IMG/VR virus record: IMGVR_UViG_3300037067_021792
From: a virus
Lineage: Duplodnaviria; Caudoviricetes
Reading direction: 5' to 3' (one strand)
Length of the DNA stretch: 64,000 bases
Positions 2 through 60,647 of the stretch are shown piece by piece (positions within the stretch are counted from its first letter, which is position 1; each line of letters starts with the position of its first letter). The translations under genes and the position numbers were made by a program. The notes beneath the pieces are model-generated. The model had not been told where the DNA came from, ran no database searches, and saw nothing but the letters and a program-made list of their open reading frames with translations.

Positions 2-226
2 TATGGAGTTCCAGGGTTAAAGGCGTTGGACATAATCACCCTCGATGGAAACCTATATTACATCACCGATATTGCACATGAAATAGATGCAAGAGAAAAT
101 CGATGGTGGATGAATATTACTGCCGAATGGCTCAAACCGTTTGAAGGCAATCTTGGAATTTTAAGTGAAAAAGGAGATACTGATTCTGGTGCTAACGAAT
201 CCGGGTCTAAAGGAATAATTATATAA
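2..226 (+). CDS. C-terminal fragment of a probable baseplate hub / tail (gp27/gpD-like) protein, 5' truncated by the window
   Basis: Frame open from base 2: YGVPGLKALDIITLDGNLYYITDIAHEID...WWMNITAEW. The G-x-P-x-L...D-x-I-x-L-x-G-x-x-Y-x-I-x-x-I-x-H pattern resembles the C-terminal beta-domain of phage hub/late-control-D proteins. Confidence 0.5.
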   Translation, partial: YGVPGLKALDIITLDGNLYYITDIAHEIDARENRWWMNITAEWLKPFEGNLGILSEKGDTDSGANESGSKGIII

Positions 227-257
227 TTGGGGGAATTGTAGTATCTCACCCTCCAAT
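226..257. terminator. Intergenic stem-loop, possible terminator or processing hairpin
   Basis: ATTGGGGG (226-233) pairs with CCTCCAAT (250-257): 8 bp with one G-U. No + strand U-tract; AAAA follows, which would be a U-tract on the - strand. Confidence 0.25.
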
Positions 258-275
258 AAAATCAAAGGAGTATTT

Positions 276-494
276 ATGAGACGTAAACCAGCAGCATATG
301 GGAAAATGAGTAGGATGATCGCAAATCCAGCCAAATCTATACCAGCCGTGGGCACCGTGCAATCTAGACAGATAACACTGAATGAAATATTCAAACAAAA
401 TTTCATCTCGGATTATCAACAGGTTATGCTCAGGTTCTCTAATGCCGCAAGAGGATTGAAATTTGGCTCTCCGCCAATGTTTGTTTCTGCATAA
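276..494 (+). CDS. Small basic hypothetical protein (72 aa)
   Basis: ATG preceded by AAAGGAG RBS; fills the gap between co-oriented genes. Confidence 0.7.
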   Translation: MRRKPAAYGKMSRMIANPAKSIPAVGTVQSRQITLNEIFKQNFISDYQQVMLRFSNAARGLKFGSPPMFVSA

Positions 495-505
495 GGATTT
501 ATACA

Positions 506-3500
506 ATGCCCTCCAGCACTAAGCATTATGGTTTAGGATATTTTGATTTCAACGATAACCTTGGTATGGATTTCGCGGAAGAAATAGAGGTGAGTCGGTT
601 TATTTTTATCGATAAGCAAATATACGGGTTGATGAGTATATTTGGCAATGGAGTTCTCAGCGGATGGCTGGCATCAGAATCTGGTCCGTTCGAGATTACT
701 GTTAGTTCTGGCTCTGGCAATATCAACTTTACATCGGCAAAAACACAATTCCCGGAAACCGTTGTTAACCTTCCTCCTAATTCAGTTCAGTACTTATATG
801 CCAAAAGATTGTCCAAAACAGGATTCGCAGAAAATATTGAATTTGCTCTGTCCGCCACACCAAGCGTAGCAGACCCTAATTTTTTATTATTGGCATCTAT
901 TACTATTGGCCCAACATCTATCCAATCAATCGATAATACTGTTCGACAAGAAATAGGGTTCATTGAATTAATTAAGGCAGCTATTCGTCTACATAGGCAC
1001 AGGGGGGGATCATCTAACCCTTCTAAAATAAATTTAGAATCTGAAGTCAAAGGCCAATTGCCTTCATTTCGTATTGCGGATTTTGACGCAGATAAGATTA
1101 CCACCGGCACTTTTGACTTATCTCGAATGCCGATATTGGACCACCAGCAGTTATCTAACGTAGGAATTCTTACTCACCCCCAATTGGATAGTTTTGTTAA
1201 AAACCTAGAATATAATAACAAAGAGCTTTTCGGAGAAATTGGAACTGCTAATCTTTTGCAGCTAATTATTGCACTTAAAATGGTCTATGATGACCCCGAC
1301 TCGCCGATATATCTATCAAATAGAACTGTAGATGAGAATTTTATTAATGAATTTACAGTTATACCTGGCATAACTCCTAATTCTTACATTGATTTTGATA
1401 ATTCTACTGCAATTATTGATTTGAATCAGCATTATGTCCAAGGCACCACACCAACTACTGGAACATCATTTTATGTCAGATGGGAAACTGCCCTGGCATG
1501 GCAATCGGCTTATTTGAGAGATAAAATTGTCATAGTAGGAAATTCTGTTACTCTGGCTTTTAACGAGGAAGAGGGTGAACCAATTGTTATCGAAGGTTTT
1601 GAATCCGCTACTGCACCTGGCCAGAATCTGAGTGAAACAGATCAGAAATTATTCGAAAAACAAGTTATTATCTTGTCAGATAACGCAGGCATAACTGCTG
1701 ATTCCGGTGCCACAAATGTAATAGAGGGGTTTTACTCCGGCAAATTTAAGCATCAGCAAAGTTTCAGAGTGCAATTTGTAAAAACGTTTTCAACCCCACA
1801 AAACTGGTCAACCTATGACTCATTGGTTTTGTATATTAAATGCATTAATCAGGTTCACGGACCAGTTAAAATGTATTTACAAGATTCTAAATCTAATAAT
1901 AGCGTAGCATTTACTTTACTAGATACTAATGAGATAACAGAAGGCAACTATACCAATGATTTTAAAATATTTGTCATAAACTTATCAATAATACCATTTA
2001 GAGATGATGTCAAAAAAATAATAATTTATACGGACGATCTGGAAAATGATTTTAGTTTCAATATAGATTATATCAATATACAAAGAGCAGTTTTATTGCC
2101 TGAAAATGGCAGAATGCTAATTAGGTATTCTAGCAATACCAAATTAATATTTGCTAATGTTGAATGGAACTCAACAGAACCTGCTGGTACACTAACATCA
2201 ATCAGGGCAAGAGCAGCCAATGGAACTGTGCTTTTGTCAAGAGCAAATTGGACATCGAACTTAACTAGTGGTGATGTGTTAAATTTGGAAGGCACAGATA
2301 TAGAGTTTGAAATCAAATTGTTCCCCGATGCAAACAGAGTTTTTGCTCCAACTCTTAATTCTCTAAAAATGCTAGTTATCACTGAAGCAGAAATTGATGG
2401 TTTTAAAATTGATACCCTAGATGAATTTAGCAGAGGAACTGCACAAAATGTAAATGTGTCATCTGACCTATCATTAGATACTCCAATTTTCGTTAATTCA
2501 TACTACTTCTGTCTGGCGGGTAACGTATCACAAATACATGAAAACACGAGTGGAAGTATTACTTTTACAGAGAGCGAACTGTCCATTAATGGTTTGGACT
2601 CACCAATTGCACCAAATTCCGTCCTAAAGACCATAGAAAACAATTTGACTAGAGTTAATTCTTCAAGTATGTTTGCGCCGAAATCGGTCAGAAGATTAAC
2701 TGGACGATCCTTTTTAGTGGCAGATACATTTAATGATAGAGTGTTAGAATTTAATGAAGAGGGTGAACTGCTCTCGGGTCTTGGGTCTATCAATTATCAA
2801 CATTCGTCTAAAACATTTCCCATCGCGGCATGTGTTGATACAAGAACTAATATTCTGTATATCGTTTGGAGCAGAAGCGTATCGTTTCAATCTGTTAATA
2901 TGAGTAAGATTGTTGTTCAAACTGCCACAGAATCAGTACAGTTAATAAAAGATTTTGATAAAATAATGGGATTATCAACCTCTGAACTACAACAAGTAGA
3001 CGCAAAAGGGCAGATTATGCCGGTTCATTTATATTCTCAAAACGCAAGCACAATATCCACTTTCCCATCAACTGGTGCAAATATATTTGTATCTCCTGAC
3101 GCCATAACATCTGGAATTGATACTGATTCGGTTTTTTATCGAGCGATAAGAAGCGAGTTGGGTATTCCGCTGTATGTAGGTAAATTTGCATATATTAATG
3201 GAATCTTCACTCCTACTTGGGCAGATAAAACTGAAGATAATTCCTATATTATATCTAATGCGAAAATAGCGATTAAAGAATGGTCTTTTCCTGCTGCAAT
3301 ATTTGACGGAAAGACCGAAACATGGACGTTGAACTCTGGAGTTTCAAGTATTATCGAAGTAGATGAAAACAACCAAGTTATTTTAGGGTCTGACGTTTTG
3401 AGTTTTTCTCCGTTCATCCCTGGGCGTGCTCAGAAAATTACATCACACACGATGTTGGTTGCAGGGATAACGCCATCTGGAAAATCTGGAGATTCATCCC

Positions 3501-3859: not shown

Positions 3860-3896
3860 TCGGTATAATACAGCATTGAAATCGGAGTGGTTCACT

Positions 3897-6114: not shown

Positions 6115-9100
6115 GTGGAATTACCTAAAGATATACAACATATAATTTCGACAGTGAGCAATGCCGCTCAACGATGCGGTACGTCTGCATATTTATCTGG
6201 TGATTATGCGAAATTAGTAATAACAGACAGAATCACTCCTAACCCAAAAAATTCTATAGATTTTATCTTAATTAATAGTTCAGAATTATCTATACCAACT
6301 TTCTATAGTTATATATCTGAGAAAATAACTATAAATAGTGAAATAAAGAATTCTGAAGAGGTATATTCCGTTATTTCGTATCCCTACATTCTTAATTTTT
6401 TTATTCGAAATAGTATTTGTGATGAGAATCAAAGATTTTCTATTGATAATATATATTATGATATATCTAAAGAGATTGTAATCGGTAACAAATCTGAAAT
6501 AATATCTGATCCGATAGTGCTAAACTATGTTGGTATAGAAAATTTCGGGATGGATGATGTTATTGACTTAGTTCTAAAAATATCTAATTTAGGAAAATGT
6601 GAGATACGTAATCTGGATTCTTTAAAAAATATTAAGCTATCTGATTTAAAGTATGGTTTGGGAAATAGTAAATTAGATATAGTAGTGGATATTCTATTAA
6701 CAAACAATCCTGGAACTGCAATCAAATTTATTGAGTCCACATTTAAAGACGGCAAACAGTGGATGGTGGAAAATCTGTTATCCTCTATGGCTGCATTGGA
6801 AATACCAATTAGTGAGGACATAGATTTAAAGGATATATTTAGCGATAAAAAAATTGAGCTGATAAATATATATAATGAATTCTTTCTAAGTAAAAATTCT
6901 TCCTATGAAACCCCAGAGGAAAGAAAGCTCAGATTAGCTACAACCCTAAAGCTTTTATTTGATTCTCCATCGTTGGTTGTGGATATTCCATATATTGACA
7001 GAATATCGGTTGCTATATCTAAACATCTGCAAGATGGGAAAATTCAGATGTTTGAAATCCCAGGTGATTGCGAGTATCCCCCATGTCCAACTTGTGACCC
7101 TACTCAATGCGGCGAAACGGGACCATCTTGTTGTTGCTGTTCATCTGTTGATATAGTTGATCAAGTGCAGTTGGAATGTCATCACAAGGTCGTAATTTCG
7201 TGCGATTCAACCGGAACAAAACCAGGGCCCAATGATGACCCGTTTCCCGCAGGATGTTCACGATGTCTAGAATCATGCAGTGGAGTTTTGGGGGTTCCTG
7301 GATATACAGATTTTTGTTCGGGAGATTTGCCATCATGGTGGTTTTTGATCCCTCCTGTGCCGTGTCAATGTGAGTGTGCAATACCCGGCTCGCCAGATTG
7401 CAATTTAACTTGTATGTACTGCAAGGGGGATAATACAAGATGCAGATCTTTAGTGAGCATCCAACCATATGATTGTAATTACGTGGTGTCTCTCACCCCA
7501 GGACCTGAATGCTGTGGTGCGCCCGCATTTATAAATTGGATGTTTGTTTTAGATTTTTCAGGCAGCATGTCAGGAAAAATTGATGAAATTATTAATGAAA
7601 TTGGCATTTTAACCCAAAAATTAGAAGATACAGCTGCAACGGCTAATTTTGCATGTACTATGTTTGGTTATAATATTCCCGGCTCCGACGCAATTCCAAT
7701 AGTAATTATTGAGTGGACATCAGATGCTAAATCATTTACAGACAATTTACAAATACAAAAAAACAAATTCCTAGGTGGTTCTATAGAGTATGATTTACTA
7801 GCTGTTAGCAAATCGATTACCGAAATCGAATGGCCACAAGCATCGTCCAGTTTTATATTCTTAATTGGCGATGAGCCAACTCAGGATCCTAGCAGAATTG
7901 ATGATAGACTATCCGGAGTAATACAATTATGTAATTTTAAGAACATAACTGTTCACGTAGCCGATATATATTCTGAGCATAGGCAAAAACTAGTGTCTTC
8001 TACCGGCGGGCAGAGATTTAATATTTCTGAGTCATTTAGTAATATAGTTGACTCATTAAATTTGGCTGCATTTCCTACCAGTTGCGACTGTTTAGATCTT
8101 AATCCAATACCAGTATATTTAAATACTCCAGAATGTGAATGCCCACAAGACCCCACCGGAGTATATTGCCGAGATCATCCGGAAGTTCAGGGATTAGAAA
8201 ATTGGTCTGAAAAATGTATGTCAATACCGATTGAAAAATGTACATCAGGAGAAACATGTAATTGTGATTGGCCTATTAGCTTATTTGTTTGTGGAACAAG
8301 CATTCAGATAACACCAACCAGCGTAAATCAGGTATGCTGTGGCGAGTTGGAGGGGTTTAATTGTGATTGTCCGTCCGTGACAGACCCCAGAGTGTGTTGT
8401 GGGGTGGATTGCCAACCATTATGCGATCCAATCGAGCCAAAATCAGTATACAACACATTGTCTGACGCTCAGCAATCGATATGGTTTAATTGCACGCAGG
8501 AGGCTGCATATGCCATTGACGAGTCATGCTATGCATTCGCAGATGGAAAGGGAGGATTTTATCAGAAATGTAAGGATGAGGTATATAGTGAAATTGAATC
8601 AGCATTTTCACAATGTTTCGAAGGACCAGACATTCCAGAAGGCGAAAAAGTCCCTTGGACATGTATGGCTGCAAAATGCCTGGCAGATGAGAGTATTCCT
8701 GATATTAGTTTAGATTGTGTATCGACTCAACATCCGGATGTTACAGTTCTAAATAATGGAATAGGAATTGTATGCTATGAAAGCTTAGATGAAGATAAAG
8801 CTCCCGTCATTAAAATTGCGCAATTTAAAACCAGTGTAGATTACGTTCTGTTATCCAATAGAGAATTTAATTTCGGAAGACTGCAAAATAATAAAAATTG
8901 GTCAAACGGTAAAGCTAAGCTATATTACTACGATGATTTGCCAATAGAAATATTACAAGGATCAAGCACTACTGAAATAAATCCAGATGGGTCGGAATGG
9001 AAAGATGCTATAGGATTTTCTTCTGGGCCACTGCAGGGCCAATGCTTTCCTCTTGGCAAGACAGAGATTGGTGTTCCGTATGGTGAAGATGAGAATGGAA

Positions 9101-12100
9101 GATTTTTGATATTCATTACTACGAATTCAATATTGAGTAGTGAATTCCCAAGTGATGACGACATATACAATATAAAATGGTTTTTGTGGGATGTACAAAG
9201 TGCAGGCAAAAAAATAGGAGATGCTTCTGCCACGGGTGGACAAAATGCTCAGTCTTATCCATATAGTAGATTTTTGTTTGATAACAGCGGGGTGGTAAAT
9301 AATATTTTATCAGGAGAGCGGGTAACGTCTCATATCTACAATGGAACAGCGGCTCCAGTGTCCAATCCTAGAATAGTCACTCTGTGTAATTATACTAGTC
9401 AACCATATGAAAATTCTCAAGTGCTTTATTTTACATACCAAGCACTTGAAGATAATAGATGGAAAGTATACTTAAAGCAATTGAGACTTTCTGAATATAA
9501 AAAAGACGATCAGATTATTGAGTCGATTCAACAAAATACGCTGATAAAATTGTCTAGTCTTGGTATAACCGATCTGATATATCGCATTGTATGTGTAAAC
9601 GATAAATGTACCGATATAGGAGAATCCAAATTTTTACTAGAAAAAATAGTCACATTTGAAGTATTAACAACTGACGGAAGAGAAGTTTTGAATCCCCAGT
9701 TTTCCTCGACCACAGAAACCTGGGGATCCCTATGCTCGGGCGTTCCTGAATTTGAATTTCCTAAGCGTAAATTATTTACAAAGTTTACTCACTCACTGAC
9801 AACGGATAAGTGCCCAGATGAATTTGGCTTTAAAGACCTGTTTCAAAATTGGACTGCTGGACAGGAATATATAGTGCCATTTACAGTGGTATCCTCCCAG
9901 TCTTTGTGGAATTTTATTAAAAGGACCAGCGATCTGGCGATAGAGCCAGGACAATATAGTAATCTGGTAATTAGCGGGATCAATGTAAATCTTTCAACCA
10001 TCTCGTCTATATGGTATGAAAATAAAACAGATTCTGAATGGAGTGTAATATCGGAATCTGATCTTTCCGATATGATGTCATATAAAGGAATGGATATCAG
10101 TGAGCCTATCCTTATATCGGTAGATGAGTCTGGAAATTGTACAAATCCCGTAATAAAGACCGATTCTAATAATGACGTTTTTATTGCATATGAACATACT
10201 GACATAAACGGGTTGCACAACATCAAACTGGTCGGCACCTGCCAACCGGTAAATATTCTGCCAGCAGGGATATACAGAGGCAAGGATATAGAATCATCTT
10301 TGGATTATTTTATATCATATGCCGATTTCGTTTACAAATGCGATATCACTTCCACCGGAGATGGGGTTAACCAACTACCGGATATGTTCATAGATTTGAA
10401 TAACGTCATACATTTAGCGTGGCAGTCCAATAGAGACAATAGATGGGAGATATACTATTGCAATTCCAACTCGTTGTTTGCCCCACAAAGGATAACTAAT
10501 CATTACGGAAAATCAATTAAACCAAAAATATCTGGTAACAAATTCGGATATTTGTTTATAGTATGGCAGGATGATAGGTATGGGAATTATGAAATCCTAA
10601 TGTCGTATAACGCAACACAACGTATTAAACCGTTATATCAACAAGACCCGTATTTGGCATCATTAAGGAATACGGGGTGGGCACACACTACCGATGATAT
10701 ACAGTTTAGTATCACCAACAATCTGAATTATCCCACATGCTACAATAATATTATTGTAAAATTTTATAATGATAGATTTTTATCTGATCTCGCATTTGAA
10801 TTGCCCGCATCTGAATATCCATTTGCATTTAATTTAAAAGATGCTCAAGATATAAATTCTAAAAATTTAGACGACATAAGCCAATGGAACACAATAGAAA
10901 ATTTCGAATTCAGTGATACATATATATTAGACCGGATAGAGTATCAATCAACTAGCAAAGAAATAGATGCATTTATTGATAATTCTGCAATTTTATCAGT
11001 AGTAATACCAAATTTGGGAAATGGTTGGCATTTGGTGTCTATTAATATCAGGGCCAGCAATACCGCAGGTCAATCTGGAGGTTGGTCCACGAATATTGAC
11101 ATAAGTGGATTATCTGGACAAACACTAGTATTGGATTATCTTTCAATACTCGGAAGATATCAACAAGTTAAAATATCATATTATAGAGATATAAATAGCA
11201 AAAATTATACGTTGATTGATTATGATGATGATGCGATATTGGAAAATAAATCTTCATGGGACAATAATCAGCCATACATAAAATTCGGTATGGACTCTGT
11301 CTCATTTGATTCATACTTGAGATTTAAAATCGATATACCATCAGGGCAAAAAATAATTGAATCCAGCCTAAAATTTTTACCATACTCTAGCCAGGCAACT
11401 ACTGTTAACGCGTTAATTAAACTACTAGACAACAATAATGCAGACTCATTCCCTGATACAATGATTAAAAACATGGTAGTATCCGATTCCCGAGATGATG
11501 CAGAAGTACATAATCGTTTCTGGACAAGTGATGGTGATACAATTGGTATTGGATACGATGGATATACCGGAGATTCATATGATGCATATTTCAGATTTCC
11601 TATAGACATTCCCAGCAATGCTTCGATAATATCTGCTAAACTAAAAATGAGATCTGCTAGTGATTCTCTTGGAGGAACTAATTTTAGGATATCGCTCATA
11701 GATACTAATGACCAATCGGAATTTTCCTCAAGCAGCAGAATTATCACACCCGTGTCAAGTTCAAAAAGCGATACATGGGGGCATAATGGAGAATTAACCA
11801 CAGATCAATCTGCATCAAAATTTTTATATTTTGGTAACGGGTCTGGAGTGACATATCAATCATACTTTAGATTTCTACTAAATGTCCCTAAAACCGAAAT
11901 AGTATCTAATGCGTATTTACTACTTACTCCATATACAACCAACTCTCAATTATGTAGTTCTATTATTAAGTTAGCATCTGTTAAGAATATTTCAGAATTT
12001 AATGAAACCGGAACAGCCGTTGTAAACGCCAGTGCTGATGCGAATTATCTGTGGTCAGGTTGGAGTTCGCCTCTGATCGGAGGACCTGCTCAGGTGGTTT

Positions 12101-15100
12101 GCTCGGGTATATATAATATAAGATTTAATAATATTCACCTGCCTACTACTCCTGCGGCAGATTATAGAGTGTATCTACATTTTGATATACCTGTATTATT
12201 ACAGGATAAAAAGTTTGTTGCCGCTTCAATATATGTTAATCGAACAACATCACAATATAGTATTCCGGTTTACAACGCGTCTCACGATCTTCATCCATGC
12301 GGATCTGTCTCAGACTTTATTCCATTTGCAATTAATCCAGTTATATATGTATCCAATCAGATCGGATGGGCACATGGAGATATTTTGCCGCTATTTTCTG
12401 AGAATATTCTAAACGAATATACATTTGCTCTAAAATCAACAGTTGCAGACGGACAGAATGATTATATCAACAGCATTGATACTGGTTTTATCCCATATTT
12501 AAACATTGATTGGGCAACAGCAGTTCCAAATCTAATGGGAGGGGTATCTTGGTCTGCATCTGGTTGGGAAATCAATGTAGAAGAAAGATCTCCAGATATT
12601 TCAGACCTAATAAATACCTGGTTAAGTTATCAAGATGTCGGGTATGTTGGTGGTAATTATATTGGTCTGGAAATTGGAGGGCAAGCAAGCAATACAGAAT
12701 TACAAACCTGTTATGCCTGGGATGACGGAAGCGGAAAACAAGCACAATTAGTGGTAGAGTATGGAGATACAGTCCCCGATGTGACATCGATGTCTGTTCT
12801 ATGGACCCCAAACGACGAGTGGAGTTTAGGAGAAGACATAGAAAGTGTGGATATTTCGTCTTTAATACAATCATATATTAGCAGGCCCGGGTATACAGCA
12901 TCTGGCAAATACATTGGCCTTGTTATTAAAAATGAGCTAAGTTTTACAAAGAAAGAGATAGACTCTTATGACGCATCTTATGGAACAGGCACAGAATTAG
13001 AGATTAAATATGTTATAAATACTGTTCCAGAAACAACCTCTAATTCTGTCATTTGGTCACCGGGTTCTTGGGAATTGGGGGTCGAAGAAGAATCTCCAGA
13101 CATATCATCGCTCGTTCAGGAATTTATTGACAGGAGCGGATATATAGAAAACAACCATATAGGCATTAAAATAGAAGAGAACGGAAGTTTTGGATACAGG
13201 GATATAGTGGCATATGATGATCCATATCTCAATAGTGTTAGTTTAGATGTTTTATATGCCGCTCCGTTATCTTGGACATTCACTTTAAATTCTATCAGTC
13301 CTCCAAGGGTTTGTTTGATGGATGGCGATACCTTCAATGGCAGTTTAAGTTTAACTCCTACTATCCGGGTAGACCAGTCGGGTTCTGTTGTATCACAGAT
13401 TCCGTTACCGATTGATTATGAAACAAATAATGCATATTTTATCCAAGTAGTAGCTACAACTGATGAAGGAAATTCAGTCGAATTTGATCAAAAACTCAGT
13501 GCATCTTGTTTAGAATGCAAACATTTGTCTCAAAATATCTGGGAACACGATTCCTGCTCTGTTAATATATTGATTAGCAATACCACTTCACAGTCTATGT
13601 CTTATAACTTTAAAATAAAATTCTATTCAGACCACAATAGACAAAAATTGATGTATGAAATTTCTAGTCTAGATAATCTTGAGTATTTTACCGTAGGAGA
13701 GAATGTTCCAGCATCTGAGCAGTGGGGCACAAATGGTCTGGATTTAGCGCAGGGAGAAGATTTTAATGTTACAGCCTGGCCAATGTTAGATAAGAACAAC
13801 GGGCTATTATGTGGTATACCGTACTATTTAGAAGTATATTATTGTTCTTCTCTAGTGCCGGATTACCATCTGTTATCAATACAGGATTGGATGTGCGAGT
13901 GCAGGTCCGAAAGGTGGACATGGATGCCAGATCATTCCGTAAAACCTCTAGGCGAAACGGCCCGGTGGCAGTGCAGCGGAGAGGGATTATCTGATATTAG
14001 GCTTACCGAAAGCATATCCAATAATCTCAATCCATCTATTATAGTGCGAAATGATTATACTGGCATTATATTATATGAAAGTAATAGACCGAAAATATTT
14101 TCTCCTAATAATACGATTGATTATGAATATAAGATTTATTGTTCGGTGTTTTCGGTTAGTCCCAATCGGCACATGTATGCGTCATCGGTAAGAAGCATAT
14201 TATCTTCGTTCTCCTATCTTATTTACAAATCAGACGTAGAATTGTGTCCGGGTCTACCATCCGAGTGTTATGATAGTAATGGAAATCGTCGGGTAATCTA
14301 TGGAAATAATGTTTCAGCAAGTGTAGACCAATTTGATAATCTATTTGTTGCCATTGAAAAACATGAAGAACCATCTGAGTGTGATATGTTTACTAAAGGA
14401 AAAGAAAAACATATAATTGTTCATAGATGCGGAATTCTAACATCAGAATTTTTATTCGATGATTTTATAGAAGAAAAACCTCAAAAGCAAACCTGCTCAT
14501 CTGATAATATTTTGAAAAAAATATACACCGTAGATGATGCTGTGTTTAATAAAACAATAAAATTAATTCGAGTTAAAAGTGAATTTGTTAAATATCACAT
14601 CACATATGCAAAAGAAAATTGTGCAGTTGTAAATCAGTGTAACATAGAATTTGAGGTTATCGGAGCACCCGAATCATCTGCTATTCAACTAAAGAATTCC
14701 GATTCCGATGTCTGGTCATCATGGATGCCCTTTAGCCCTACCATTGGAGAAAATTCCCTTAATATTAAATGGAGTTTATCCGCAGGCAGCGGTATTAAAC
14801 AAATACAATTTCAAGTTGCAACTGTAGCTGGGGTTACTGGAACGACATCGTTGAATATCATTGCTGATTATGATCCGATATCTTACTCGGTGGTGTTCTA
14901 TGGAGCTTCAGAAATAGCGCCAGACACTATGACTAATGAGGAAATCGTATCTACGATTATAAATAAGGGAGATTTATGGAAGCAAGAAAACCGACTTACT
15001 AATTTTAACGATATTCCCGTCGCGTCAGTCGGAGTAACTGTTGAATCAGTGTGGATTGATGAGTATGGAAACGAAGTTCCCGAAGGACAAGGAACGGAGG

Positions 15101-15636
15101 TTTTCAGACCTATTGAATTAAGTTCAACCTACGCACTTATTGAAATAATACCTGATATAAAATATGTGTCCCAATTTAACAGCATTTCGGATGATATTAA
15201 ATCTCAAGGGAGCGGAGAAGGGTGCATTGCGCCGACATTTGATTTTATTCATCAGGGCAGCCAAAGCTATTATAACCAGAAAACATGGTGGTCCAGGAAC
15301 AGCGACAATCAGGAAGTGTTTAGGAGTTACATACAAATTAACAAGGATGACGATTGGGGGTATAAAGATGGATTAGCAACTATTAGACCGCATTTCAAAA
15401 ATGACTGCTCAGATTCCGGATCCGTGTCTGGAATTTGTTCTGGAAATACTACCGTATTTAGTAGAAATGAAATTAATCAACTTACAACAGAAAAAACATC
15501 ATCTCAAAATCCATCTGATATTTGGAGTGAAAATAGAAATAATGTCGGTTTAATTCAATATCCAATCGTTATAAGGCCGGTAGGAGATGACCCATATTTG
15601 ATATTCGGTGATCCAAATTATTATGATCCAAATTGA
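6115..15636 (+). CDS. Giant multidomain putative virion protein (3173 aa): degenerate CCA/PAP nucleotidyltransferase-like head, Cys-rich segments, VWA, beta-propeller blades, nested DNRLRE-like domains, Ig-like modules
   Basis: 9.5-kb ORF whose GTG directly follows the upstream TAA. VWA MIDAS motif VLDFSGS...LIGDEP (~7537-8060). Propeller blades HLAWQSNRDNRWEIYY and IVWQDDRYGNYEI. Repeated YLRF.I.IP....I.S..L and SPDIS.L.Q.F halves (11209-13263). No signal peptide. Confidence 0.85.
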   Translation: MELPKDIQHIISTVSNAAQRCGTSAYLSGDYAKLVITDRITPNPKNSIDFILINSSELSIPTFYSYISEKITINSEIKNSEEVYSVISYPYILNFFIRNSICDENQRFSIDNIYYDISKEIVIGNKSEIISDPIVLNYVGIENFGMDDVIDLVLKISNLGKCEIRNLDSLKNIKLSDLKYGLGNSKLDIVVDILLTNNPGTAIKFIESTFKDGKQWMVENLLSSMAALEIPISEDIDLKDIFSDKKIELINIYNEFFLSKNSSYETPEERKLRLATTLKLLFDSPSLVVDIPYIDRISVAISKHLQDGKIQMFEIPGDCEYPPCPTCDPTQCGETGPSCCCCSSVDIVDQVQLECHHKVVISCDSTGTKPGPNDDPFPAGCSRCLESCSGVLGVPGYTDFCSGDLPSWWFLIPPVPCQCECAIPGSPDCNLTCMYCKGDNTRCRSLVSIQPYDCNYVVSLTPGPECCGAPAFINWMFVLDFSGSMSGKIDEIINEIGILTQKLEDTAATANFACTMFGYNIPGSDAIPIVIIEWTSDAKSFTDNLQIQKNKFLGGSIEYDLLAVSKSITEIEWPQASSSFIFLIGDEPTQDPSRIDDRLSGVIQLCNFKNITVHVADIYSEHRQKLVSSTGGQRFNISESFSNIVDSLNLAAFPTSCDCLDLNPIPVYLNTPECECPQDPTGVYCRDHPEVQGLENWSEKCMSIPIEKCTSGETCNCDWPISLFVCGTSIQITPTSVNQVCCGELEGFNCDCPSVTDPRVCCGVDCQPLCDPIEPKSVYNTLSDAQQSIWFNCTQEAAYAIDESCYAFADGKGGFYQKCKDEVYSEIESAFSQCFEGPDIPEGEKVPWTCMAAKCLADESIPDISLDCVSTQHPDVTVLNNGIGIVCYESLDEDKAPVIKIAQFKTSVDYVLLSNREFNFGRLQNNKNWSNGKAKLYYYDDLPIEILQGSSTTEINPDGSEWKDAIGFSSGPLQGQCFPLGKTEIGVPYGEDENGRFLIFITTNSILSSEFPSDDDIYNIKWFLWDVQSAGKKIGDASATGGQNAQSYPYSRFLFDNSGVVNNILSGERVTSHIYNGTAAPVSNPRIVTLCNYTSQPYENSQVLYFTYQALEDNRWKVYLKQLRLSEYKKDDQIIESIQQNTLIKLSSLGITDLIYRIVCVNDKCTDIGESKFLLEKIVTFEVLTTDGREVLNPQFSSTTETWGSLCSGVPEFEFPKRKLFTKFTHSLTTDKCPDEFGFKDLFQNWTAGQEYIVPFTVVSSQSLWNFIKRTSDLAIEPGQYSNLVISGINVNLSTISSIWYENKTDSEWSVISESDLSDMMSYKGMDISEPILISVDESGNCTNPVIKTDSNNDVFIAYEHTDINGLHNIKLVGTCQPVNILPAGIYRGKDIESSLDYFISYADFVYKCDITSTGDGVNQLPDMFIDLNNVIHLAWQSNRDNRWEIYYCNSNSLFAPQRITNHYGKSIKPKISGNKFGYLFIVWQDDRYGNYEILMSYNATQRIKPLYQQDPYLASLRNTGWAHTTDDIQFSITNNLNYPTCYNNIIVKFYNDRFLSDLAFELPASEYPFAFNLKDAQDINSKNLDDISQWNTIENFEFSDTYILDRIEYQSTSKEIDAFIDNSAILSVVIPNLGNGWHLVSINIRASNTAGQSGGWSTNIDISGLSGQTLVLDYLSILGRYQQVKISYYRDINSKNYTLIDYDDDAILENKSSWDNNQPYIKFGMDSVSFDSYLRFKIDIPSGQKIIESSLKFLPYSSQATTVNALIKLLDNNNADSFPDTMIKNMVVSDSRDDAEVHNRFWTSDGDTIGIGYDGYTGDSYDAYFRFPIDIPSNASIISAKLKMRSASDSLGGTNFRISLIDTNDQSEFSSSSRIITPVSSSKSDTWGHNGELTTDQSASKFLYFGNGSGVTYQSYFRFLLNVPKTEIVSNAYLLLTPYTTNSQLCSSIIKLASVKNISEFNETGTAVVNASADANYLWSGWSSPLIGGPAQVVCSGIYNIRFNNIHLPTTPAADYRVYLHFDIPVLLQDKKFVAASIYVNRTTSQYSIPVYNASHDLHPCGSVSDFIPFAINPVIYVSNQIGWAHGDILPLFSENILNEYTFALKSTVADGQNDYINSIDTGFIPYLNIDWATAVPNLMGGVSWSASGWEINVEERSPDISDLINTWLSYQDVGYVGGNYIGLEIGGQASNTELQTCYAWDDGSGKQAQLVVEYGDTVPDVTSMSVLWTPNDEWSLGEDIESVDISSLIQSYISRPGYTASGKYIGLVIKNELSFTKKEIDSYDASYGTGTELEIKYVINTVPETTSNSVIWSPGSWELGVEEESPDISSLVQEFIDRSGYIENNHIGIKIEENGSFGYRDIVAYDDPYLNSVSLDVLYAAPLSWTFTLNSISPPRVCLMDGDTFNGSLSLTPTIRVDQSGSVVSQIPLPIDYETNNAYFIQVVATTDEGNSVEFDQKLSASCLECKHLSQNIWEHDSCSVNILISNTTSQSMSYNFKIKFYSDHNRQKLMYEISSLDNLEYFTVGENVPASEQWGTNGLDLAQGEDFNVTAWPMLDKNNGLLCGIPYYLEVYYCSSLVPDYHLLSIQDWMCECRSERWTWMPDHSVKPLGETARWQCSGEGLSDIRLTESISNNLNPSIIVRNDYTGIILYESNRPKIFSPNNTIDYEYKIYCSVFSVSPNRHMYASSVRSILSSFSYLIYKSDVELCPGLPSECYDSNGNRRVIYGNNVSASVDQFDNLFVAIEKHEEPSECDMFTKGKEKHIIVHRCGILTSEFLFDDFIEEKPQKQTCSSDNILKKIYTVDDAVFNKTIKLIRVKSEFVKYHITYAKENCAVVNQCNIEFEVIGAPESSAIQLKNSDSDVWSSWMPFSPTIGENSLNIKWSLSAGSGIKQIQFQVATVAGVTGTTSLNIIADYDPISYSVVFYGASEIAPDTMTNEEIVSTIINKGDLWKQENRLTNFNDIPVASVGVTVESVWIDEYGNEVPEGQGTEVFRPIELSSTYALIEIIPDIKYVSQFNSISDDIKSQGSGEGCIAPTFDFIHQGSQSYYNQKTWWSRNSDNQEVFRSYIQINKDDDWGYKDGLATIRPHFKNDCSDSGSVSGICSGNTTVFSRNEINQLTTEKTSSQNPSDIWSENRNNVGLIQYPIVIRPVGDDPYLIFGDPNYYDPN
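11209..13263 (+). repeat. Nested (A1-A2-A3-D-B3-B2-B1) protein domain repeat
   Basis: Three ~85-90-aa N-half repeats (D..../Y.RF...IP....I.SA.L) are followed by one whole related domain and then three ~83-aa C-half repeats (VP.....V.W....W.....S.DIS.L.......GY....IG........D......L...Y). Confidence 0.75.
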
Positions 15637-22400: not shown

Positions 22401-25400
22401 TATTGACAAGAATGATATCATCCATGTTACATGGCAATCGAATCGCGATGGATACTGGGAAATATATTATGCAAATGGTTACGATTTGTTCAATCCTGTT
22501 CGAATTACAAAATCTGAAAGCAGATCGGCGTTTCCGTCGATAGACATTGATGATTCTGGTAATGTATTCATTGTATATCAAGACAATCGTTATGGCCCTT
22601 ACAACATATTGCTTTCATATAGAAGCAGCGAACGGGTTGTGCCTCTTTTGCAGCAAAATGCATATTTAGGGTCTGTTCGGTCGGGATACTCTCACTACAT
22701 AACCGTATTACCGATTCTTCTTACAAATTTATCTACTCCTGTTTCAACAATTGGTACAATGTGGGGGTCCAGAAGCACCGGATCTATGAGTATGTTGTTT
22801 GGCATATCTCCCGTAACCGGAGTTCTGGGATCAAATGGAGGAGATTCCAGCTACGATATCGTTGCTTTTGCAGGAAAACGATCGGGTGAATTTTATGGTA
22901 TTACTAGGGACGGAACCTTGTTGCTACTTGCCGATTCATATGAAGACCCGTATTTGGCACTTGATTTAACCACAATATCTGAAATAGGACAAATTGTATT
23001 ATCCCCTGATCAGGAAATTTTAGATGCAACTATTGACGAGATTGGTGGTTCCTTGTGGATGTTGATCCATGATTCTACAAATATTATTATTAAACAAGTA
23101 GATGTTTTGTCTGCGAGTGTTTTACGGGAAAGCGTAATATATTATGATGTAGATCGATTAATTGGAGGCATAACTTGCACATCTGATGGAAAATTTTATC
23201 TGTCTAGTTATAGGGACGGTATATCTAAGCTATCTATAAGTGAATATCCATTAATAGGTAATGACATTATAATATTCGATTTCATTGATACCGTTAACTT
23301 TTCTGTTAATATCAAATGTTTAATAACAGATTATAATGACATAGTTTACGGTGTTTCAGATTTACTGGGAATGTATATTGTCAATGAGCATGGCGAAACC
23401 TTGGTCAATTATATGAACAATACTGATGGAGACTTGGAATATATTATTGACAATAGAGATTCAGATAATACCAATGTTATTGGCAGTTGGAAAACTGGAT
23501 CTGCAGCACCCGGAAAATGGAGTATAGATTATAGATTTAAAGACACTATCGACAGACCTATTGGATTTTTCAGGTGGGTGCCGGATTTGCCATATCCGGG
23601 CAAATATAGAGTTTCAGCTTACTTTCCTGGAGGCGGCAATCGGCCTATTGACGCCCCGTTTACTATATATCACTCAGATGGGTCAGATACCATAAGAATG
23701 AATCAAAAACCAGCAACGCCAACATTAGTAGAGCCATGGAGATATTTAGGGTTTTATTCATTTGGTGATGAGTATGGTTCGGGTGGGTATGTTGAGTTAT
23801 CCAACGATACAGATCCAGCACTTGGCTGGAAAGCAGTAATTGCCGATGCCGTGAAGTTCACTCCTGAGATTAGAATCGGGTATCAATTCACCGGTCATAC
23901 GACGAGTGTTGGAAATAGTGGATTTTTTAATACAATTTTGGAATTCTATACAAATAAAAATCTTGTTGGCCAGCCCGACCTGGTGATAGATAGTAGGGTT
24001 CATCGGGAATCTTTCACGATAGAACAATTTCCAGATGATCCATACAAACCCAATGGAGATGGAATATATCTAAAATCTGGTCAATCTGGATATATGTTTT
24101 TTGATGCGTCAAATTATCGTCCCGATGCCAGTAATCTGTCTTACCCATATGTGTTTGTTAATAACCAATCGTATTTTGTAAAAGTAATTATGATAGACCA
24201 GGATGGAAACTCTTCTTACCCTGCTTATCAGAATTCCACGTTTTCTTGTACTAAATGCTCCGTGTATGCTAGTGGAAAATTTGATTTATCCGAGTGTTCG
24301 TATTCTTTTTTAGTTAACAACACCGGATCCGATACTAGATATTTTAATTTTAGAATAAACTTTTATTCTGACGAACTGAAATTGTCTATTGTAAAGTGTT
24401 TTTATTTATCTCCAGGGTCATCGGATATAGGTTACTGCGAGGTAGATAATACCACCGGAGCAAATGAATGGGGAGAGTTCGGTCTTGCGATTAGGTCTGG
24501 CGAATCAAAATTTATTCAAATATATCCATCTCTAGATCCTGCCGGAAAATTTATATGTGGTATAGAATATCCTGTTGATATTTTATTATGCTCATCATCT
24601 GGCTCAGAAGTGTGTTCTAATTTTGGTATTGATCTAGATGTGATAGAAACATATAGCAAATATTACTTTTGTGAATGCTCTAGTGCTATCTTTGATAACA
24701 GACTACTTCATATTAATGAATTAAATCGATGGCATTCTAGCGCCCATGGCTATTCCGACACAAGAATAACCGATACACCTAACAATAATTATCACCCTGT
24801 CATATCTACTAGGTCTAGCGGATCGGCAGTAGTTGTATTTGAAGACCGAAGTTCAATTTCTGAAATTAAAGCTGCCACCTTTAGCCCATCAGACAGTGAA
24901 GATGTGTTTGGGTCTGGAACTCGCGGATGGTTTGATTATAGCACTAACTCGATTGGAGAAAAACCTGCCCTATCAATAGATATGTTTGATAGAGCGAATG
25001 TGGCTTATGAATTTAATAACGCGATATTGCCATTGTCAACCGAATTGCCTAGAAGTGTTATTGATGTGAAAACATGCAAATTTAACGACTTGATTTCTTC
25101 TGGTGATACCTCTGAAAAATGTAACATATCGTCCTTTGAATCCAATGTTATAAGCAATGACCCGTTTATTAATGCAGAAATAGTTAAAAAAATAATAGTT
25201 GAATCTTCCGATGTAGATTATTTTACATACAATTCTTCAGGAGAAGCAGTTGCCGTTATCTCTAAACGTGATGTTGTATTACAAATTTGGGGGACACCGG
25301 AGATTGTGGCAGTTAGAGTCAAAAATGAAAATGAATTATCTTATGGGAATTGGTGTCCGGCATTACCAGAAATTAATTCTTATTTTATTGAAATACAACA

Positions 25401-45200: not shown

Positions 45201-48200
45201 CAAGAAACTGTAAATACTTTTGCTGATAACGCGGTATACGATTCTGGTGGAACTTGGTATTCAAATCCGACTTATTTATACCTTGGGGATAATGCTACTT
45301 TTCAGTCTGATATTTACCTTCGATTTCCCATTAACTTTATATCCAGTTTTTCATTAGTTTCTGCAACAGTCCCATTCACCGCCCATGAATCTTTTGGTAG
45401 TCAGGTTGTGGTTAAAATTTCATACTTGGATCCAGCATCATATAGTGACTCGCTTGATTTGGATACTGATGCTGCGAGGTTTGTCCAGGGCAAGGGTTCT
45501 ATAATATGGAATCCTCAGAACTGGGCAGATGGGGCAACCGAATCTGTTGATGTGACATCATTAATCAATCAGTTCATGCAAGAATCGGATTATGCAGACG
45601 GTAACCATATTATATTAAAATTTGAAACTATAAGTTCTGGTGTGGGACATTATAGATCTGCTTACTCTTTTAATGATATAACCCTGGCACCAACCCTTGA
45701 TTTGCGTTATACTGTAGATTTATCAGAGGTAACCAGTAGTATACAATTTCAAAATCTTAAATCGTATCATTTACAGTTTGAATTTGAAGATAACTCTACC
45801 ACTAGATGGGTAAGGATCACAACTTCTGATTCAGGAATATTTCCAAATCCGATTATTAATTTGAAAAAAAGATTGAGATTTAAAATATATTTACCATCCC
45901 GATCCATACGTATGGGAATTGGAATTAGAGAGGTATTGGGAGAATCGCTTCAAATCGGAGAAAATGGTGGCATGTCAGGCGCCATTGAGTGGGTTAATGT
46001 GCCTGATTTTGTAATAGATGAGAACAACGTGGTTCCGGTGGGTCAATCTATATCCCCTGGCATATGGCATGATATCGATATAGACTTCTCTAACACCAGC
46101 ATATTAAGTTTTGAAAATGGGAACGGACAAATTAGCGAGAAGTATGGAGTATTAGAGCATTTAGCGTTTACTGTTGATCCAGAAAACCCATCGTCTGGAC
46201 CATTTGATGTGTATATAAATAAAATTGAGCAATCAAGCGATTTGTTAGTGTCTGGAACAAGCAATGGTATACAGATATCAGACGATTTTGGAAGTTCATG
46301 GAAGGTATCAAGGCTCACGGAAACTCCTGTGCATAAATTTTATAAATCTAAGAATAGCAACTTTTTGTGGGCAATTTCTTCAACAGAAGTGTTACTATCT
46401 ACCGATCCAGTTAAATGGTATACAATCAAAGGTGTTACAGGCGTACAAAGCATCAGAGACATAGCAGAAGATTCTGTTGGTAATATTTATATTTCTACTG
46501 AGCGTGGAGTTTTTACTTTAGACATATCTAGAATATATAATTTTGCCCTGTTCGAGCAGACTCAACCGATTGCTGCATTTACCACTGATTGTTATGGGCT
46601 ATACCATAACAATATATCTTCTGGAATTGACGAGATATGGGTTAGTACTGAATTTGGGATTTATAGAACTTCCGACACCGGTTCTACGTGGGAAGATACA
46701 GGATTACGAACGTTGGGCTTGCCTGTCTTTCAATTTCAAAATATTGGGACATCTCAAAACCCGAATATTATAGGAATGACCAGAAAACACATCTTGCGCA
46801 AGCGACATACTGACGATCAGTTTTATGCGATAACCAACTTCGATGACCAGCATGGAATTTCTGATAATTGGACATTTGAATATTTTTCTGAAAAACTATA
46901 TGTATCTAATGGCGGTGGAGTCTATGCTAATGATAAGGATTTAATTTTTACGCCCGGAACAGTGGATATTTCCTTTAGCAGAGTGATGCCTCAGCTTGAC
47001 AGAAACGGACACATAGCCACCACTTTCTGTTTAAATAAGGTTATATCTGAATCTAACAATTATGTTATGTTTGCTGGTCAAGAAAATAGGTTATTTTTAG
47101 TTGATAATGATGATAAAGTTCATACTAGATCGGTATTTTATGGGGAGCTTCCTAGTTTTTACGTGGACGATGTAGAACAAAATATCGGCTATACTTATAA
47201 TAATTTTAATGGTGTTATATCATTCAGAGAATATATAGGGATAAATCAAATAGTATCTTCTGCAACTTTGCCTCGCAGAGTTTTCCATGCATCCAACGGT
47301 GGTTGGGCCCTCACAAATCCAATGGCGGAAATATTTATATACATAGATGGTAACCCGACATGGTTGTTCTTTCAAATCAACAGCAGCAGGATATTGAATG
47401 AAATACAATTGATAAAAAGCGATATAGAAAATTTACCAGATTTAGATGACTTCAACAGTATTTTACCACAGTCTCAACAATACATGGATAGTACTATAGG
47501 AGACATAAATACAATATTAAGTGGTGGAAAAGATGGAACGCCGTTAATATCAAATGACACTATAATAACATTTCTGGATGATTTTACTAGATTTAAATCT
47601 TTATTAACTACTGATATTTCTGCAACCGTCAAGAATCCTGAAATAATTATTTCTGGAATCCCTAGATCAGAGGCTTTAGCCACCAGCAGGGGAGTGATAC
47701 TAGAACTATCTGAAGATTTTTCATCGAGCCATAGTGTGGGCATAGATATAAGTACATTTAATGGCGTGATAGATTTCAGGTCTGCATATGCGAATGCCAC
47801 GACTCCGGAAGATAGAGATTTATTTTCTTTTGATAAATTTGATCATATGAATATCACAGTATTTAATTCCAATATAAAAAACACCGGCGAACTGACACAC
47901 CGACAAACTGAGGATAAAATGGAGGAAGTAGGTACTGGACTGTCTGAAAATATGTCCAGATCATTTTACACGAATTTAATAAAAACAGGTATTTTTGCCG
48001 AATTAAATAATCATTTTTTGTTCGACAGATATAATGTGTCAAATATACAAAGTAAGTTTTACGCCGCACATACGGCATCCTGGTATGATTTGGTGAATTC
48101 TACAATAGACTATGATACAGTAATCGAGGTTGATGCTGTTTTGGAGTCGAGATTTGTCAATGTAATTATACAGACGAGTGGTGACCCGTATTTGCCCAAT

Positions 48201-50101: not shown

Positions 50102-50102
50102 T

Positions 50103-60217: not shown

Positions 60218-60471
60218 AACTTGACGACAGAAAAATAACAGCCATCGGGTGGGGACCGTCCGAAAATATCCCGAATCATTATGAGTGGGTTACAGTTGGC
60301 TCCGAGACAATGGGACGCAAGGTGACCCAAATTAATTGCGCAGAGCAGTATTGCGGGGAATACAGTATTTACTGGATACAAGTATGGTCTAATGACACGT
60401 TGGTTTCGCGGTATAATGCAAGAAGCGTAGATACAATTCTATACGATGAGGATGAGGATGAAAATGAGTGA
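60214..60471 (+). CDS. Small hypothetical protein (85 aa)
   Basis: ATGA overlap with the upstream stop; co-oriented; acidic tail. Confidence 0.65.
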   Translation: MKLDDRKITAIGWGPSENIPNHYEWVTVGSETMGRKVTQINCAEQYCGEYSIYWIQVWSNDTLVSRYNARSVDTILYDEDEDENE

Positions 60472-60646: not shown

Positions 60647-60647
60647 C

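What the first reader, a model, noticed from the sequence alone, without database searches (positions are those of the whole stretch)
11209..13263. Matryoshka domain: three split DNRLRE-like domains nested around a fourth
Seen: three consecutive N-halves (~11209, 11461, 11734), one complete related domain (~12010-12519), then three consecutive C-halves (12520, 12769, 13021). The uninterrupted N-half + C-half domain occurs in another protein of this window (~45207-45716: DNAVY..W....LYLG.....YLRFPI...SA...IIWNPQNW......VDVTSLINQF......GNHI......SF......L.L.Y), showing the halves belong to one fold. Inference: recursive insertion of the domain into the same loop of itself (A1[A2[A3[D]B3]B2]B1). 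This would build a rigid out-and-back stalk that projects a tip domain, and the whole unit is itself inserted in a chassis domain. It differs from ordinary tandem-repeat stalks.
Basis: partly seen in the sequence, partly recalled or inferred. Interest (0 to 1): 0.82.

Follow-up and report, generated by a model that had tools for sequence, protein, structure and literature searches.

The report
Sugar-binding-type domains nested like Russian dolls
A 3,173-residue protein of an uncultured huge phage carries four copies of one sugar-binding-type domain set inside one another, so the chain runs out and back; related phages carry three to eight such layers, always with matched halves, which is a rare but already described way to build a protein arm.

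Summary
Residues 1695-2383 of the protein encoded at 6115-15636 read A1 A2 A3 [D] B3 B2 B1. A and B are the N- and C-halves of a DNRLRE/CBM96-like beta-sandwich, and D is a complete, divergent copy.

- In 144 ordinary family members the halves strictly alternate: 357 A-to-B junctions, median gap 8 residues.
- Only the nine syntenic giant orthologues show A..A[core]B..B. Counts are equal wherever every unit is detected: 3/3 plus D here, 3/3 in two orthologues, 8/8 in three.
- Two AlphaFold2 models build whole CBM96-like sandwiches from halves 170-430 residues apart, one inside the other (8WAB Z 16.7-17.3, 7VBO Z 14.3-14.4).
- The pairing register followed the input alignment. The A1-B1 pair and D were not modelled with confidence. 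The balanced register rests on orthology: inner-type A3 and B3, duplicated outer-type A1/A2 and B1/B2.

Recursive self-insertion is known from the Si3 region of cyanobacterial RNA polymerase, reported as six levels deep, so this is a new variant of a known kind. Earlier notes of this scan report similar nests on other DNA. The function is inferred: an arm that holds out a tip or displays glycan-binding modules. The "chassis domain" claim was not tested.

The parts
6115..15636 (+). Gene for the 3173-aa giant protein that holds the nest
   Evidence: ORF list and translation. Syntenic orthologues P0004-P0010 and P0015 share the order 1120-aa gene, GT4, ~390-aa gene, giant, ~280-aa gene, giant.
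10462..11196 (+). Conserved upstream flank (aa 1450-1694), ending just before the first N-half
   Evidence: 39-46% identity to all eight orthologues, ending at the start of their first A unit.
11197..11460 (+). A1: N-half of the outermost domain (aa 1695-1782), outer type
   Evidence: Family A-HMM E 1e-18. Best match of the N-half of the intact domain. 38% identical to A2. Low pLDDT in model 1, where it had no alignment cover.
11467..11730 (+). A2: N-half of level 2 (aa 1785-1872), outer type
   Evidence: A-HMM E 7e-21. pLDDT 83-95 in model 2. Forms a sandwich with B2 in model 2 (range 3..516) and with B1 in model 1 (8WAB Z 17.3, range 95..697).
11734..12009 (+). A3: N-half of level 3 (aa 1874-1965), inner type
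   Evidence: A-HMM E 5e-15. Groups with the inner A of all five shallow orthologues (support 95/94). With B3 it forms a complete CBM96-like sandwich in model 2 (8WAB Z 16.7, 163 of 176 residues aligned, range 89..435).
12010..12519 (+). D: complete but divergent central domain (aa 1966-2135), the tip
   Evidence: hhalign of the D-plus-orthologue-centres profile against the single-domain family: probability 97.5%, E 6e-12, whole length. NF033679 match is weak (E 0.088). pLDDT below 50 in both models.
12520..12765 (+). B3: C-half of level 3 (aa 2136-2217), inner type
   Evidence: B-HMM E 3e-16. Shares the W[LF]xxQxxGY two-residue insertion with the inner B of all five shallow orthologues. pLDDT 79-94 in model 2, paired with A3.
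12769..13020 (+). B2: C-half of level 2 (aa 2219-2302), outer type
   Evidence: B-HMM E 2e-19. 43% identical to B1. Lacks the inner-type insertion. pLDDT 86-96 in model 2.
13021..13263 (+). B1: C-half of the outermost domain (aa 2303-2383), outer type
   Evidence: B-HMM E 2e-23. Best match of the C-half of the intact domain (E 5e-11).
13264..14064 (+). Conserved downstream flank (aa 2384-2650), starting right after the last C-half
   Evidence: 36-40% identity to all eight orthologues, starting right after their last B unit. Contains the conserved PPR[LIV]CL motif.
45207..45719 (+). Uninterrupted copy of the same domain in the 2258-aa protein (aa 961-1131)
   Evidence: A and B HMM hits are adjacent. 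NF033679 covers model positions 11-162 of 164, at E 0.0067 and below the cut-off.
22474..24813 (+). Equivalent site in the paralogous giant (16414-26043): homologous flanks around a Golvesin_C domain instead of the nest
   Evidence: BLASTP of the flanks: aa 2021-2105 (E 6e-17) and 2572-2800 (E 1e-26). PF25275 at aa 2344-2483, E 3e-22.

Best explanation
Residues ~1695-2383 are four copies of one DNRLRE/CBM96-like beta-sandwich nested in one another: A1[A2[A3[D]B3]B2]B1.

Each copy is opened at the same surface loop, after the ~88-residue N-half that ends in the LIDxxD..F strand and before the V.W strand of the C-half. The next copy is spliced in there with linkers of only 2-7 residues.

The chain therefore runs outward through three N-halves, folds the tip domain D, and returns through three C-halves, each completing the sandwich begun on the way out. 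This gives a side arm of about four sandwiches whose entry and exit lie together, between two conserved flanking regions of a giant, probably virion-associated, phage protein.

Shown here: the halves are halves of one fold; their numbers are balanced across orthologues of different depth; distant halves are modelled as single sandwiches in nested order.

Inferred:
- The exact register in this protein.
- That the arm is stiff.
- Its role. By analogy with the split domains of RTX adhesins, the likely role is to hold a tip or a row of glycan-binding modules away from the protein axis, with length tuned by adding or removing matched half-pairs.
For: 1. One fold. In 144 other family members, A is always followed by B (357 junctions, median gap 8 aa, no AA or BB). 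Six of 12 single-domain relatives hit NF033679 (best E 1e-8), and the 707-aa piece scores 42 bits against a cut-off of 34.

2. Balance. The nine syntenic orthologues carry, between the same flanks, equal A and B counts at three depths (4 here counting D, 3, and 8).

3. Structure.
- Model 2 (aa 1783-2303, pLDDT 73, pTM 0.61) has A2, A3, B3 and B2 at pLDDT 79-96. 8WAB_B aligns 163 of 176 residues at Z 16.7 (rmsd 3.6) over model range 89..435, which is A3 plus B3. 7VBO aligns at Z 14.3 (154 residues, rmsd 3.3). A further hit spans 3..516, which is A2 plus B2.
- Model 1 (aa 1686-2392) also gives two nested sandwiches: 8WAB Z 17.3, 162 residues, range 95..697; a second set of hits spans 187..617.
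- 8WAB is a DNRLRE-domain protein (PMC12611786) and 7VBO is CBM96 (PMC9971899).

4. Register.
- A3 groups with the orthologues' inner A (95/94).
- B3 shares a two-residue insertion with all their inner B units, while B1 and B2 lack it.
- A1/A2 and B1/B2 are each the closest pair (38% and 43% identity), and both resemble the outer units of the orthologues.
- The unit types therefore read outer, outer, inner, [centre], inner, outer, outer: a mirror order.

5. Mirror-tree tests.
- This protein: nested is the best of 6 mappings.
- P0005: nested r 0.53 (p 0.017), collinear r -0.40.
- The three deep nests pooled: nested r 0.43 (p 0.05), collinear r -0.27.

6. Linkers between units are 2-7 residues. 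This leaves no slack for non-nested pairings.
Against: - The full-length model paired A2 with B1 and A3 with B2 and left A1, D and B3 at low confidence. AlphaFold2 followed whichever register the six-sequence alignment implied, so the models do not fix the register on their own.
- A1-B1 was never modelled as a pair.
- D is below pLDDT 50 in both models.
- A reference-panel paralogue-matching test worked on controls (212 of 330 correct against 118 by chance). On the nests it was mixed: it favoured nested pairing here and in four of five two-level orthologues, was weakly in favour in P0008 (p 0.07), but favoured collinear pairing in P0005 (p 0.019).
- The tree of B units is unresolved.
- No experimental structure exists, and no contact map or PAE was available.
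- Phage origin and virion location rest on earlier, unchecked notes. No PHROG, IMG/VR or GenBank-phage relative was found.
Confidence: 0.82

Rival explanations
1. Nested, but in a shifted register with orphan halves. A2 pairs with B1, A3 with B2 and the N-part of D with B3. A1 and the C-part of D are unpaired remnants of an unfinished or decaying duplication.
For: This is what the full-length AlphaFold2 model shows: A1 has pLDDT ~35-50, and one whole sandwich spans model range 95..697. MAFFT aligns the orthologues in this way.
Against: - The shift follows the alignment. With the balanced alignment, B3 rises from pLDDT 33-57 to 79-94 and pairs with A3.
- D is a complete domain by profile comparison.
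- B3 carries the inner-type insertion and so corresponds to the partner of the inner A.
- A1 is well conserved as an A unit (E 1e-18) and is the best match of the N-half of the intact domain. That is not expected of a decaying orphan.
Confidence: 0.08
2. The half-arrays pair between chains. In an oligomeric fibre, the A array of one subunit zips with the B array of a neighbour (domain swapping), so the nest acts as an assembly clasp rather than a monomeric arm.
For: - Phage fibre and baseplate proteins are commonly oligomers (general knowledge).
- Equal A and B counts would also be required for such a clasp.
- Nothing tested here separates intra-chain from inter-chain pairing.
Against: - The central domain and the 2-7-residue linkers fit a simple hairpin return.
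- AlphaFold2 closes the sandwiches within one chain at high confidence.
- The entry and exit of the nest are adjacent to conserved flanks. In the orthologues they are bracketed by conserved cysteines, as expected for an insertion.
Confidence: 0.06
3. A and B are independent small domains in two ordinary tandem arrays, or they pair collinearly (A1-B3, A2-B2, A3-B1). There is no nesting.
For: On sequence alone, AAA...BBB could be two tandem arrays. The reference-panel test favoured collinear pairing in one orthologue (P0005, p 0.019).
Against: - In 357 junctions outside this clade, A never occurs without an adjacent B.
- Counts are balanced at three depths.
- Unit types lie in mirror order.
- Both models place the halves in single sandwiches in nested order.
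- Collinear correlation is negative in the Mantel tests.
- Collinear pairing would need D, or the 500-630-aa cores of the deep orthologues, to span the whole stack.
Confidence: 0.03

Closest known systems
Si3 insertion of the cyanobacterial RNA polymerase beta' subunit: recursively inserted SBHM/HABAS domains (PMC10895346; ECOD survey PMC13114784)
   Same: One small beta domain is inserted into copies of itself, so several copies are discontinuous in sequence and the whole forms an elongated appendage inside a loop of a larger protein. The survey describes 'six-level nested' architecture as its example of recursive insertion.
   Different: - Different fold (SBHM against a CBM96-like sandwich) and a different host protein (polymerase trigger loop against a giant phage structural-type protein).
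- The nest here is strictly regular: same loop, one copy per level, 2-7-residue linkers.
- Depth varies between orthologues from 3 to 8 domains. Eight would exceed the six levels reported.
- Si3 is solved experimentally. This nest is only predicted.
DNRLRE domain (NCBIfam NF033679) / CBM96, e.g. the alginate-binding TM6-N4 (PDB 7VBO, PMC9971899) and the chondroitin-sulfate-binding module (PDB 8WAB)
   Same: Weak but consistent sequence signal. The reassembled split domains superpose on 8WAB and 7VBO over 153-163 residues at Z 14.3-17.3.
   Different: - Known members are contiguous domains, single or in tandem. Here they are split and nested.
- Sequence identity to the solved modules is only 14-18%.
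- A PDB sequence search finds nothing.
- Sugar binding is untested.
Split Ig-like domains of RTX adhesins (FrhA, MpIBP; PMC10865825)
   Same: A host beta domain is interrupted by an inserted ligand-binding domain. The cargo is projected sideways from a very long protein, with both its termini on one side. This is the functional model adopted here.
   Different: - Those are a single level, with a different fold for host and cargo, and they occur in bacterial adhesins.
- Here host and cargo are the same family, repeated recursively.

Membership tests
DNRLRE domain (NF033679) / CBM96 | Match to the NF033679 profile above its curated cut-off (34 bits) | tested here: met
   - The 707-aa piece scores 42.0 bits, E 1e-10, in three stretches.
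- Single units are weaker. The intact copy at 45.2 kb scores 16.5 bits (E 0.0067) but covers model positions 11-162 of 164. D alone gives E 0.088.
- Six of 12 single-domain relatives match, best E 1e-8.
DNRLRE domain (NF033679) / CBM96 | Two-sheet beta-sandwich superposable on solved members (7VBO, 8WAB) | tested here: met
   On AlphaFold2 models, not on a solved structure:
- 8WAB_B: Z 17.3 (162 aligned, rmsd 3.4) and Z 16.7 (163 aligned, rmsd 3.6).
- 7VBO_A: Z 14.4 (153 aligned, rmsd 3.2) and Z 14.3 (154 aligned, rmsd 3.3).
- The next unrelated rows score Z about 11.
DNRLRE domain (NF033679) / CBM96 | Binding of an acidic polysaccharide in a basic groove; structural Ca2+ site | not testable with these tools
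   Ligand-binding residues of 7VBO (PMC9971899) were not mapped, and identity is only 14-18%. A binding assay is needed.
Recursive (nested) domain insertion, as in RNA polymerase Si3 | A domain whose two sequence segments are separated by another complete domain | tested here: met
   Single sandwiches are built from model ranges 89..435 and 3..516 (model 2) and from 95..697 and 187..617 (model 1). The intact version of the domain exists in the same window and in 144 other proteins.
Recursive (nested) domain insertion, as in RNA polymerase Si3 | The inserted domain is itself a split host for a further insertion (two or more levels) | tested here: met
   Two split levels lie one inside the other in each model. 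Sequence shows three split levels plus a centre here, and seven plus a centre in P0004, P0005 and P0008.
Recursive (nested) domain insertion, as in RNA polymerase Si3 | The full register A1-B1, A2-B2, A3-B3, D intact, in this protein | tested here: inconclusive
   - A2-B2 and A3-B3 are modelled only with the balanced alignment.
- The full-length model is shifted by one.
- A1-B1 and D are not modelled with confidence.
- Orthology and unit types favour the balanced register.
Split-domain projection modules of RTX adhesins | Ig-like host domain within an RTX adhesin, carrying a ligand-binding domain | tested here: not met
   The host fold here is CBM96-like, not Ig-like, and no RTX or adhesin families were found in the protein. 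This is a working analogy only, not membership.

The most novel reading that the evidence does not exclude
The nest is an evolvable, length-adjustable arm. Layers are gained or lost only as matched N-half/C-half pairs that lie up to 6 kb apart in the gene. In this protein the outer layer was duplicated on both sides.

That would imply either a dedicated one-step route, in which a whole domain copy is inserted into the same loop of itself, or tolerated intermediates with an unpaired half. With eight domains, the deep orthologues would be the deepest regular self-nesting described in the literature I could search. The arm would display a row of glycan-binding modules for host-surface recognition by huge phages.
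Probability: 0.3. Interest if true: 0.75.

Novelty: new variant of a known kind. Interest (0 to 1): 0.6.

Why it matters
Domain insertion is common, but recursive insertion of a domain into itself is documented mainly for one case, the Si3 region of cyanobacterial RNA polymerase.

Here the same principle builds a regular out-and-back arm from a carbohydrate-binding-type sandwich in giant proteins of uncultured huge phages. Natural variants carry 3, 4 and 8 layers between identical anchor points.

- This gives a natural series for asking how split domains fold, and how two distant gene segments change in step.
- It may help explain how very large phage proteins reach and recognise host surfaces.
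- It is a practical warning for annotation and structure prediction. Half-domains are missed by family models, and alignments of orthologues with different depth shift the predicted pairing.

Tried and rejected
- Pfam gave nothing for the protein, the nest, D or the inserted cores of the orthologues. PHROGs gave nothing for the giants or their neighbours except glycosyltransferases.
- PDB sequence searches with the 707-aa piece and with a family profile found no relative. The only hit was 1g43 at E 0.19, which I take as chance.
- Foldseek against the PDB gave no match at E <= 0.001. It gave only half-domain local alignments to 8WAB and 7VBO of 94-95 columns, because its local alignments do not bridge the insert.
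- IMG/VR scans and tblastn against GenBank phages found no relatives. I could not confirm phage origin myself.
- No whole genome is held for this window.
- A deep alignment with single-domain relatives was rejected for folding. MAFFT puts them all on A2 plus B1, the most canonical halves, which would have imposed a pairing. Adding flanks did not correct the register.
- The reference-panel paralogue matching gave mixed results, and I treat it as inconclusive.
- Unit-by-unit orthology between shallow and deep nests could not be resolved.
- The B-unit tree was unresolved.
- DNA repeats show only motif-level similarity, so a recent duplication is excluded.
Full report
**Observation.** The window holds a run of giant genes on the + strand. 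The finding lies in the 3173-aa product of 6115-15636.

Its N-half matches three consecutive segments of the 3173-aa protein: aa 1693-1772, 1778-1869 and 1903-1965. Its C-half matches three later consecutive segments: aa 2142-2204, 2227-2309 and 2311-2386. E-values go down to 5e-11.

HMMs of the two halves, rebuilt over four rounds mostly from other proteins, score the three A units at E 5e-15 to 7e-21 and the three B units at E 3e-16 to 2e-23. They find no other copy in the window.

The central 170 residues are missed by these HMMs. A profile of this piece with its orthologues matches the single-domain family over its whole length (hhalign 97.5%, E 6e-12). The layout A1 A2 A3 [D] B3 B2 B1 is therefore real, and the coordinates are right.

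**What the domain is.** Pfam has nothing. NCBIfam's DNRLRE_dom (NF033679) matches the 707-aa piece at 42 bits (cut-off 34). It covers nearly its whole model on the intact copy, weakly, and matches six of twelve single-domain relatives.

DNRLRE domains are the CBM96 family. The solved member 7VBO is a two-sheet beta-sandwich that binds alginate (PMC9971899). 8WAB, a chondroitin-sulfate-binding module, is also a DNRLRE-domain protein (PMC12611786).

**The family elsewhere.**
- An exhaustive HMMER search found 627 proteins.
- In the 144 listed members outside the phage clade, A and B strictly alternate. There are 357 A-to-B junctions with a median gap of 8 residues, only one gap exceeds 40, and there is never AA or BB.
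- The halves therefore belong to one contiguous fold in every ordinary relative.

**The orthologues.** Eight giant proteins (P0004-P0010, P0015) share the gene order 1120-aa gene, GT4 glycosyltransferase, ~390-aa gene, giant, ~280-aa gene, giant. They also share 36-46% identical flanks on both sides of the nest.

With HMMs trained on the phage units, the content between the flanks is:

| Protein(s) | A / B units | Note |
|---|---|---|
| This protein | 3 / 3 | plus D |
| P0009, P0007 | 3 / 3 | innermost pair adjacent, i.e. an intact centre |
| P0015, P0010 | 3 / 2 | unassigned gap of 88-90 residues where the third B should be |
| P0006 | 2 / 2 | around a 405-aa core |
| P0005, P0004, P0008 | 8 / 8 | see below |

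Depth thus takes three values (3, 4 and 8 domains), and the counts balance each time.

**Pairing from sequence.**
- A3 groups with the inner A of all five shallow orthologues (support 95/94).
- B3 and all five inner B units share a W[LF]xxQxxGY motif with a two-residue insertion. B1, B2 and all the orthologues' outer B units lack it.
- A1/A2 (38% identity) and B1/B2 (43%) are each the closest pair. Both resemble the orthologues' outer units.
- The types therefore read outer, outer, inner, [centre], inner, outer, outer. Relative to its relatives, this protein duplicated the outer layer on both sides. This is what nesting predicts and what collinear pairing does not.
- Mirror-tree (Mantel) tests point the same way but are modest. 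Here, nested is the best of six mappings. In P0005, nested gives r 0.53 (p 0.017) against collinear r -0.40. For the three deep nests pooled, nested gives r 0.43 (p 0.05) against collinear r -0.27.
- A reference-panel matching method recovered true partners in control proteins (212 of 330 against 118 by chance). On the nests it gave mixed answers, including one in favour of collinear pairing, so I treat it as inconclusive.

**Pairing from structure prediction.** I foresaw that alignments would bias the result. MAFFT puts single-domain relatives on A2 plus B1. It aligns the shallower orthologues with a shift: their outer A onto A2, but their outer B onto B1.

*Model 1:* aa 1686-2392, six-sequence orthologue alignment, mean pLDDT 61.8, pTM 0.44.
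- Confident for A2, A3, B2 and B1. Poor for A1, D and B3.
- VIA-align places 8WAB_B (Z 17.3, rmsd 3.4, 162 of 176 residues) and 7VBO_A (Z 14.4, 153 of 182) on model range ~95..697. That is one whole sandwich made of A2 and B1.
- A second set of hits spans 187..617, which is A3 plus B2.

*Model 2:* aa 1783-2303 (A2 A3 D B3 B2), for which MAFFT gives the balanced register. Mean pLDDT 73.2, pTM 0.61.
- All four halves are at pLDDT 79-96.
- 8WAB_B (Z 16.7, 163 residues) and 7VBO_A (Z 14.3, 154 residues) lie on range ~89..435, which is A3 plus B3.
- A further hit spans 3..516, which is A2 plus B2.

In both models, halves 170-430 residues apart close into single CBM96-like sandwiches, one inside the other. 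The halves never fold alone or pair collinearly.

The register followed the alignment, so the models establish the architecture, not the register. A1-B1 and D remain unmodelled. The balanced register is preferred on four grounds:
- D is a complete domain.
- B3 is of the inner type.
- All eight halves then find partners.
- B3 becomes confident only in that register.

**Context and function.**
- Earlier notes of this scan call the genome a huge phage and place these genes near tail genes. I could not confirm this: there is no PHROG, IMG/VR or GenBank-phage match.
- The neighbouring giants carry PA14, LamG, Kelch, VWA and Golvesin_C domains and are flanked by glycosyltransferases. This fits surface-recognition proteins.
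- A paralogous giant in the window has the same flanks around a Golvesin_C domain instead of the nest. The site therefore behaves as a cargo slot.
- Whether the flanks form one 'chassis' domain was not tested.
- In RTX adhesins, split domains project sugar-binding domains away from the protein axis (PMC10865825). I adopt that as the most likely role, at about even odds. The alternative is a passive spacer.

**Novelty.** Recursive insertion of one domain into itself is documented for the Si3 region of cyanobacterial RNA polymerase, which has a solved structure (PMC10895346). A 2026 ECOD survey cites it as a six-level nested architecture (PMC13114784).

The present case uses another fold, is strictly regular, varies in depth between orthologues, and reaches eight domains in relatives. 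I found no paper describing nested DNRLRE/CBM96 domains.

Notes of this scan report comparable nests in other jumbo phages, giant viruses and Asgard archaea. The kind recurs, and this is a further variant of it, not a new category.

Noticed in passing
window 22474-24813 (aa 2021-2800 of the 16414-26043 product): The paralogous giant protein shares both flanks of the nest but carries a Golvesin_C domain (PF25275, E 3e-22) between them. The same site appears to accept different cargo.
   Followed up: partly
L006 (P0005) aa 1880-2326 and 2906-3446; also P0004 and P0008: The deep orthologues have a second insertion hot spot inside the N-half, at HMM position ~31. The outermost A is split by ~360 aa and the central A by ~480 aa, and in P0008 the second A is split as well. 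The inserts match no Pfam family.
   Followed up: partly
P0004 aa 333-704: A second, small nest of the same domain (A, A..., B) lies near the N-terminus of the 5358-aa orthologue, far from the main nest.
   Followed up: no
window ~11170-11196 and ~13300-13320; orthologue alignment: All eight orthologues have a cysteine just before the first N-half, and all nine proteins have PPR[LIV]CL just after the last C-half. This could be a disulfide clamp at the base of the arm. This window's protein has lost the first cysteine.
   Followed up: no
window 34003-42171, 50067-59426, 3876-4979, 59471-61769: The cassette of giant genes carries PA14, LamG, Kelch-propeller and VWA domains and is interspersed with GT4-type and other glycosyltransferases.
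   Followed up: no
window 6115-15636 and loci L001-L006: The lineage is known only from metagenome assemblies, with contigs up to ~330 kb. It has no relative in IMG/VR or in GenBank phages by the searches run.
   Followed up: partly
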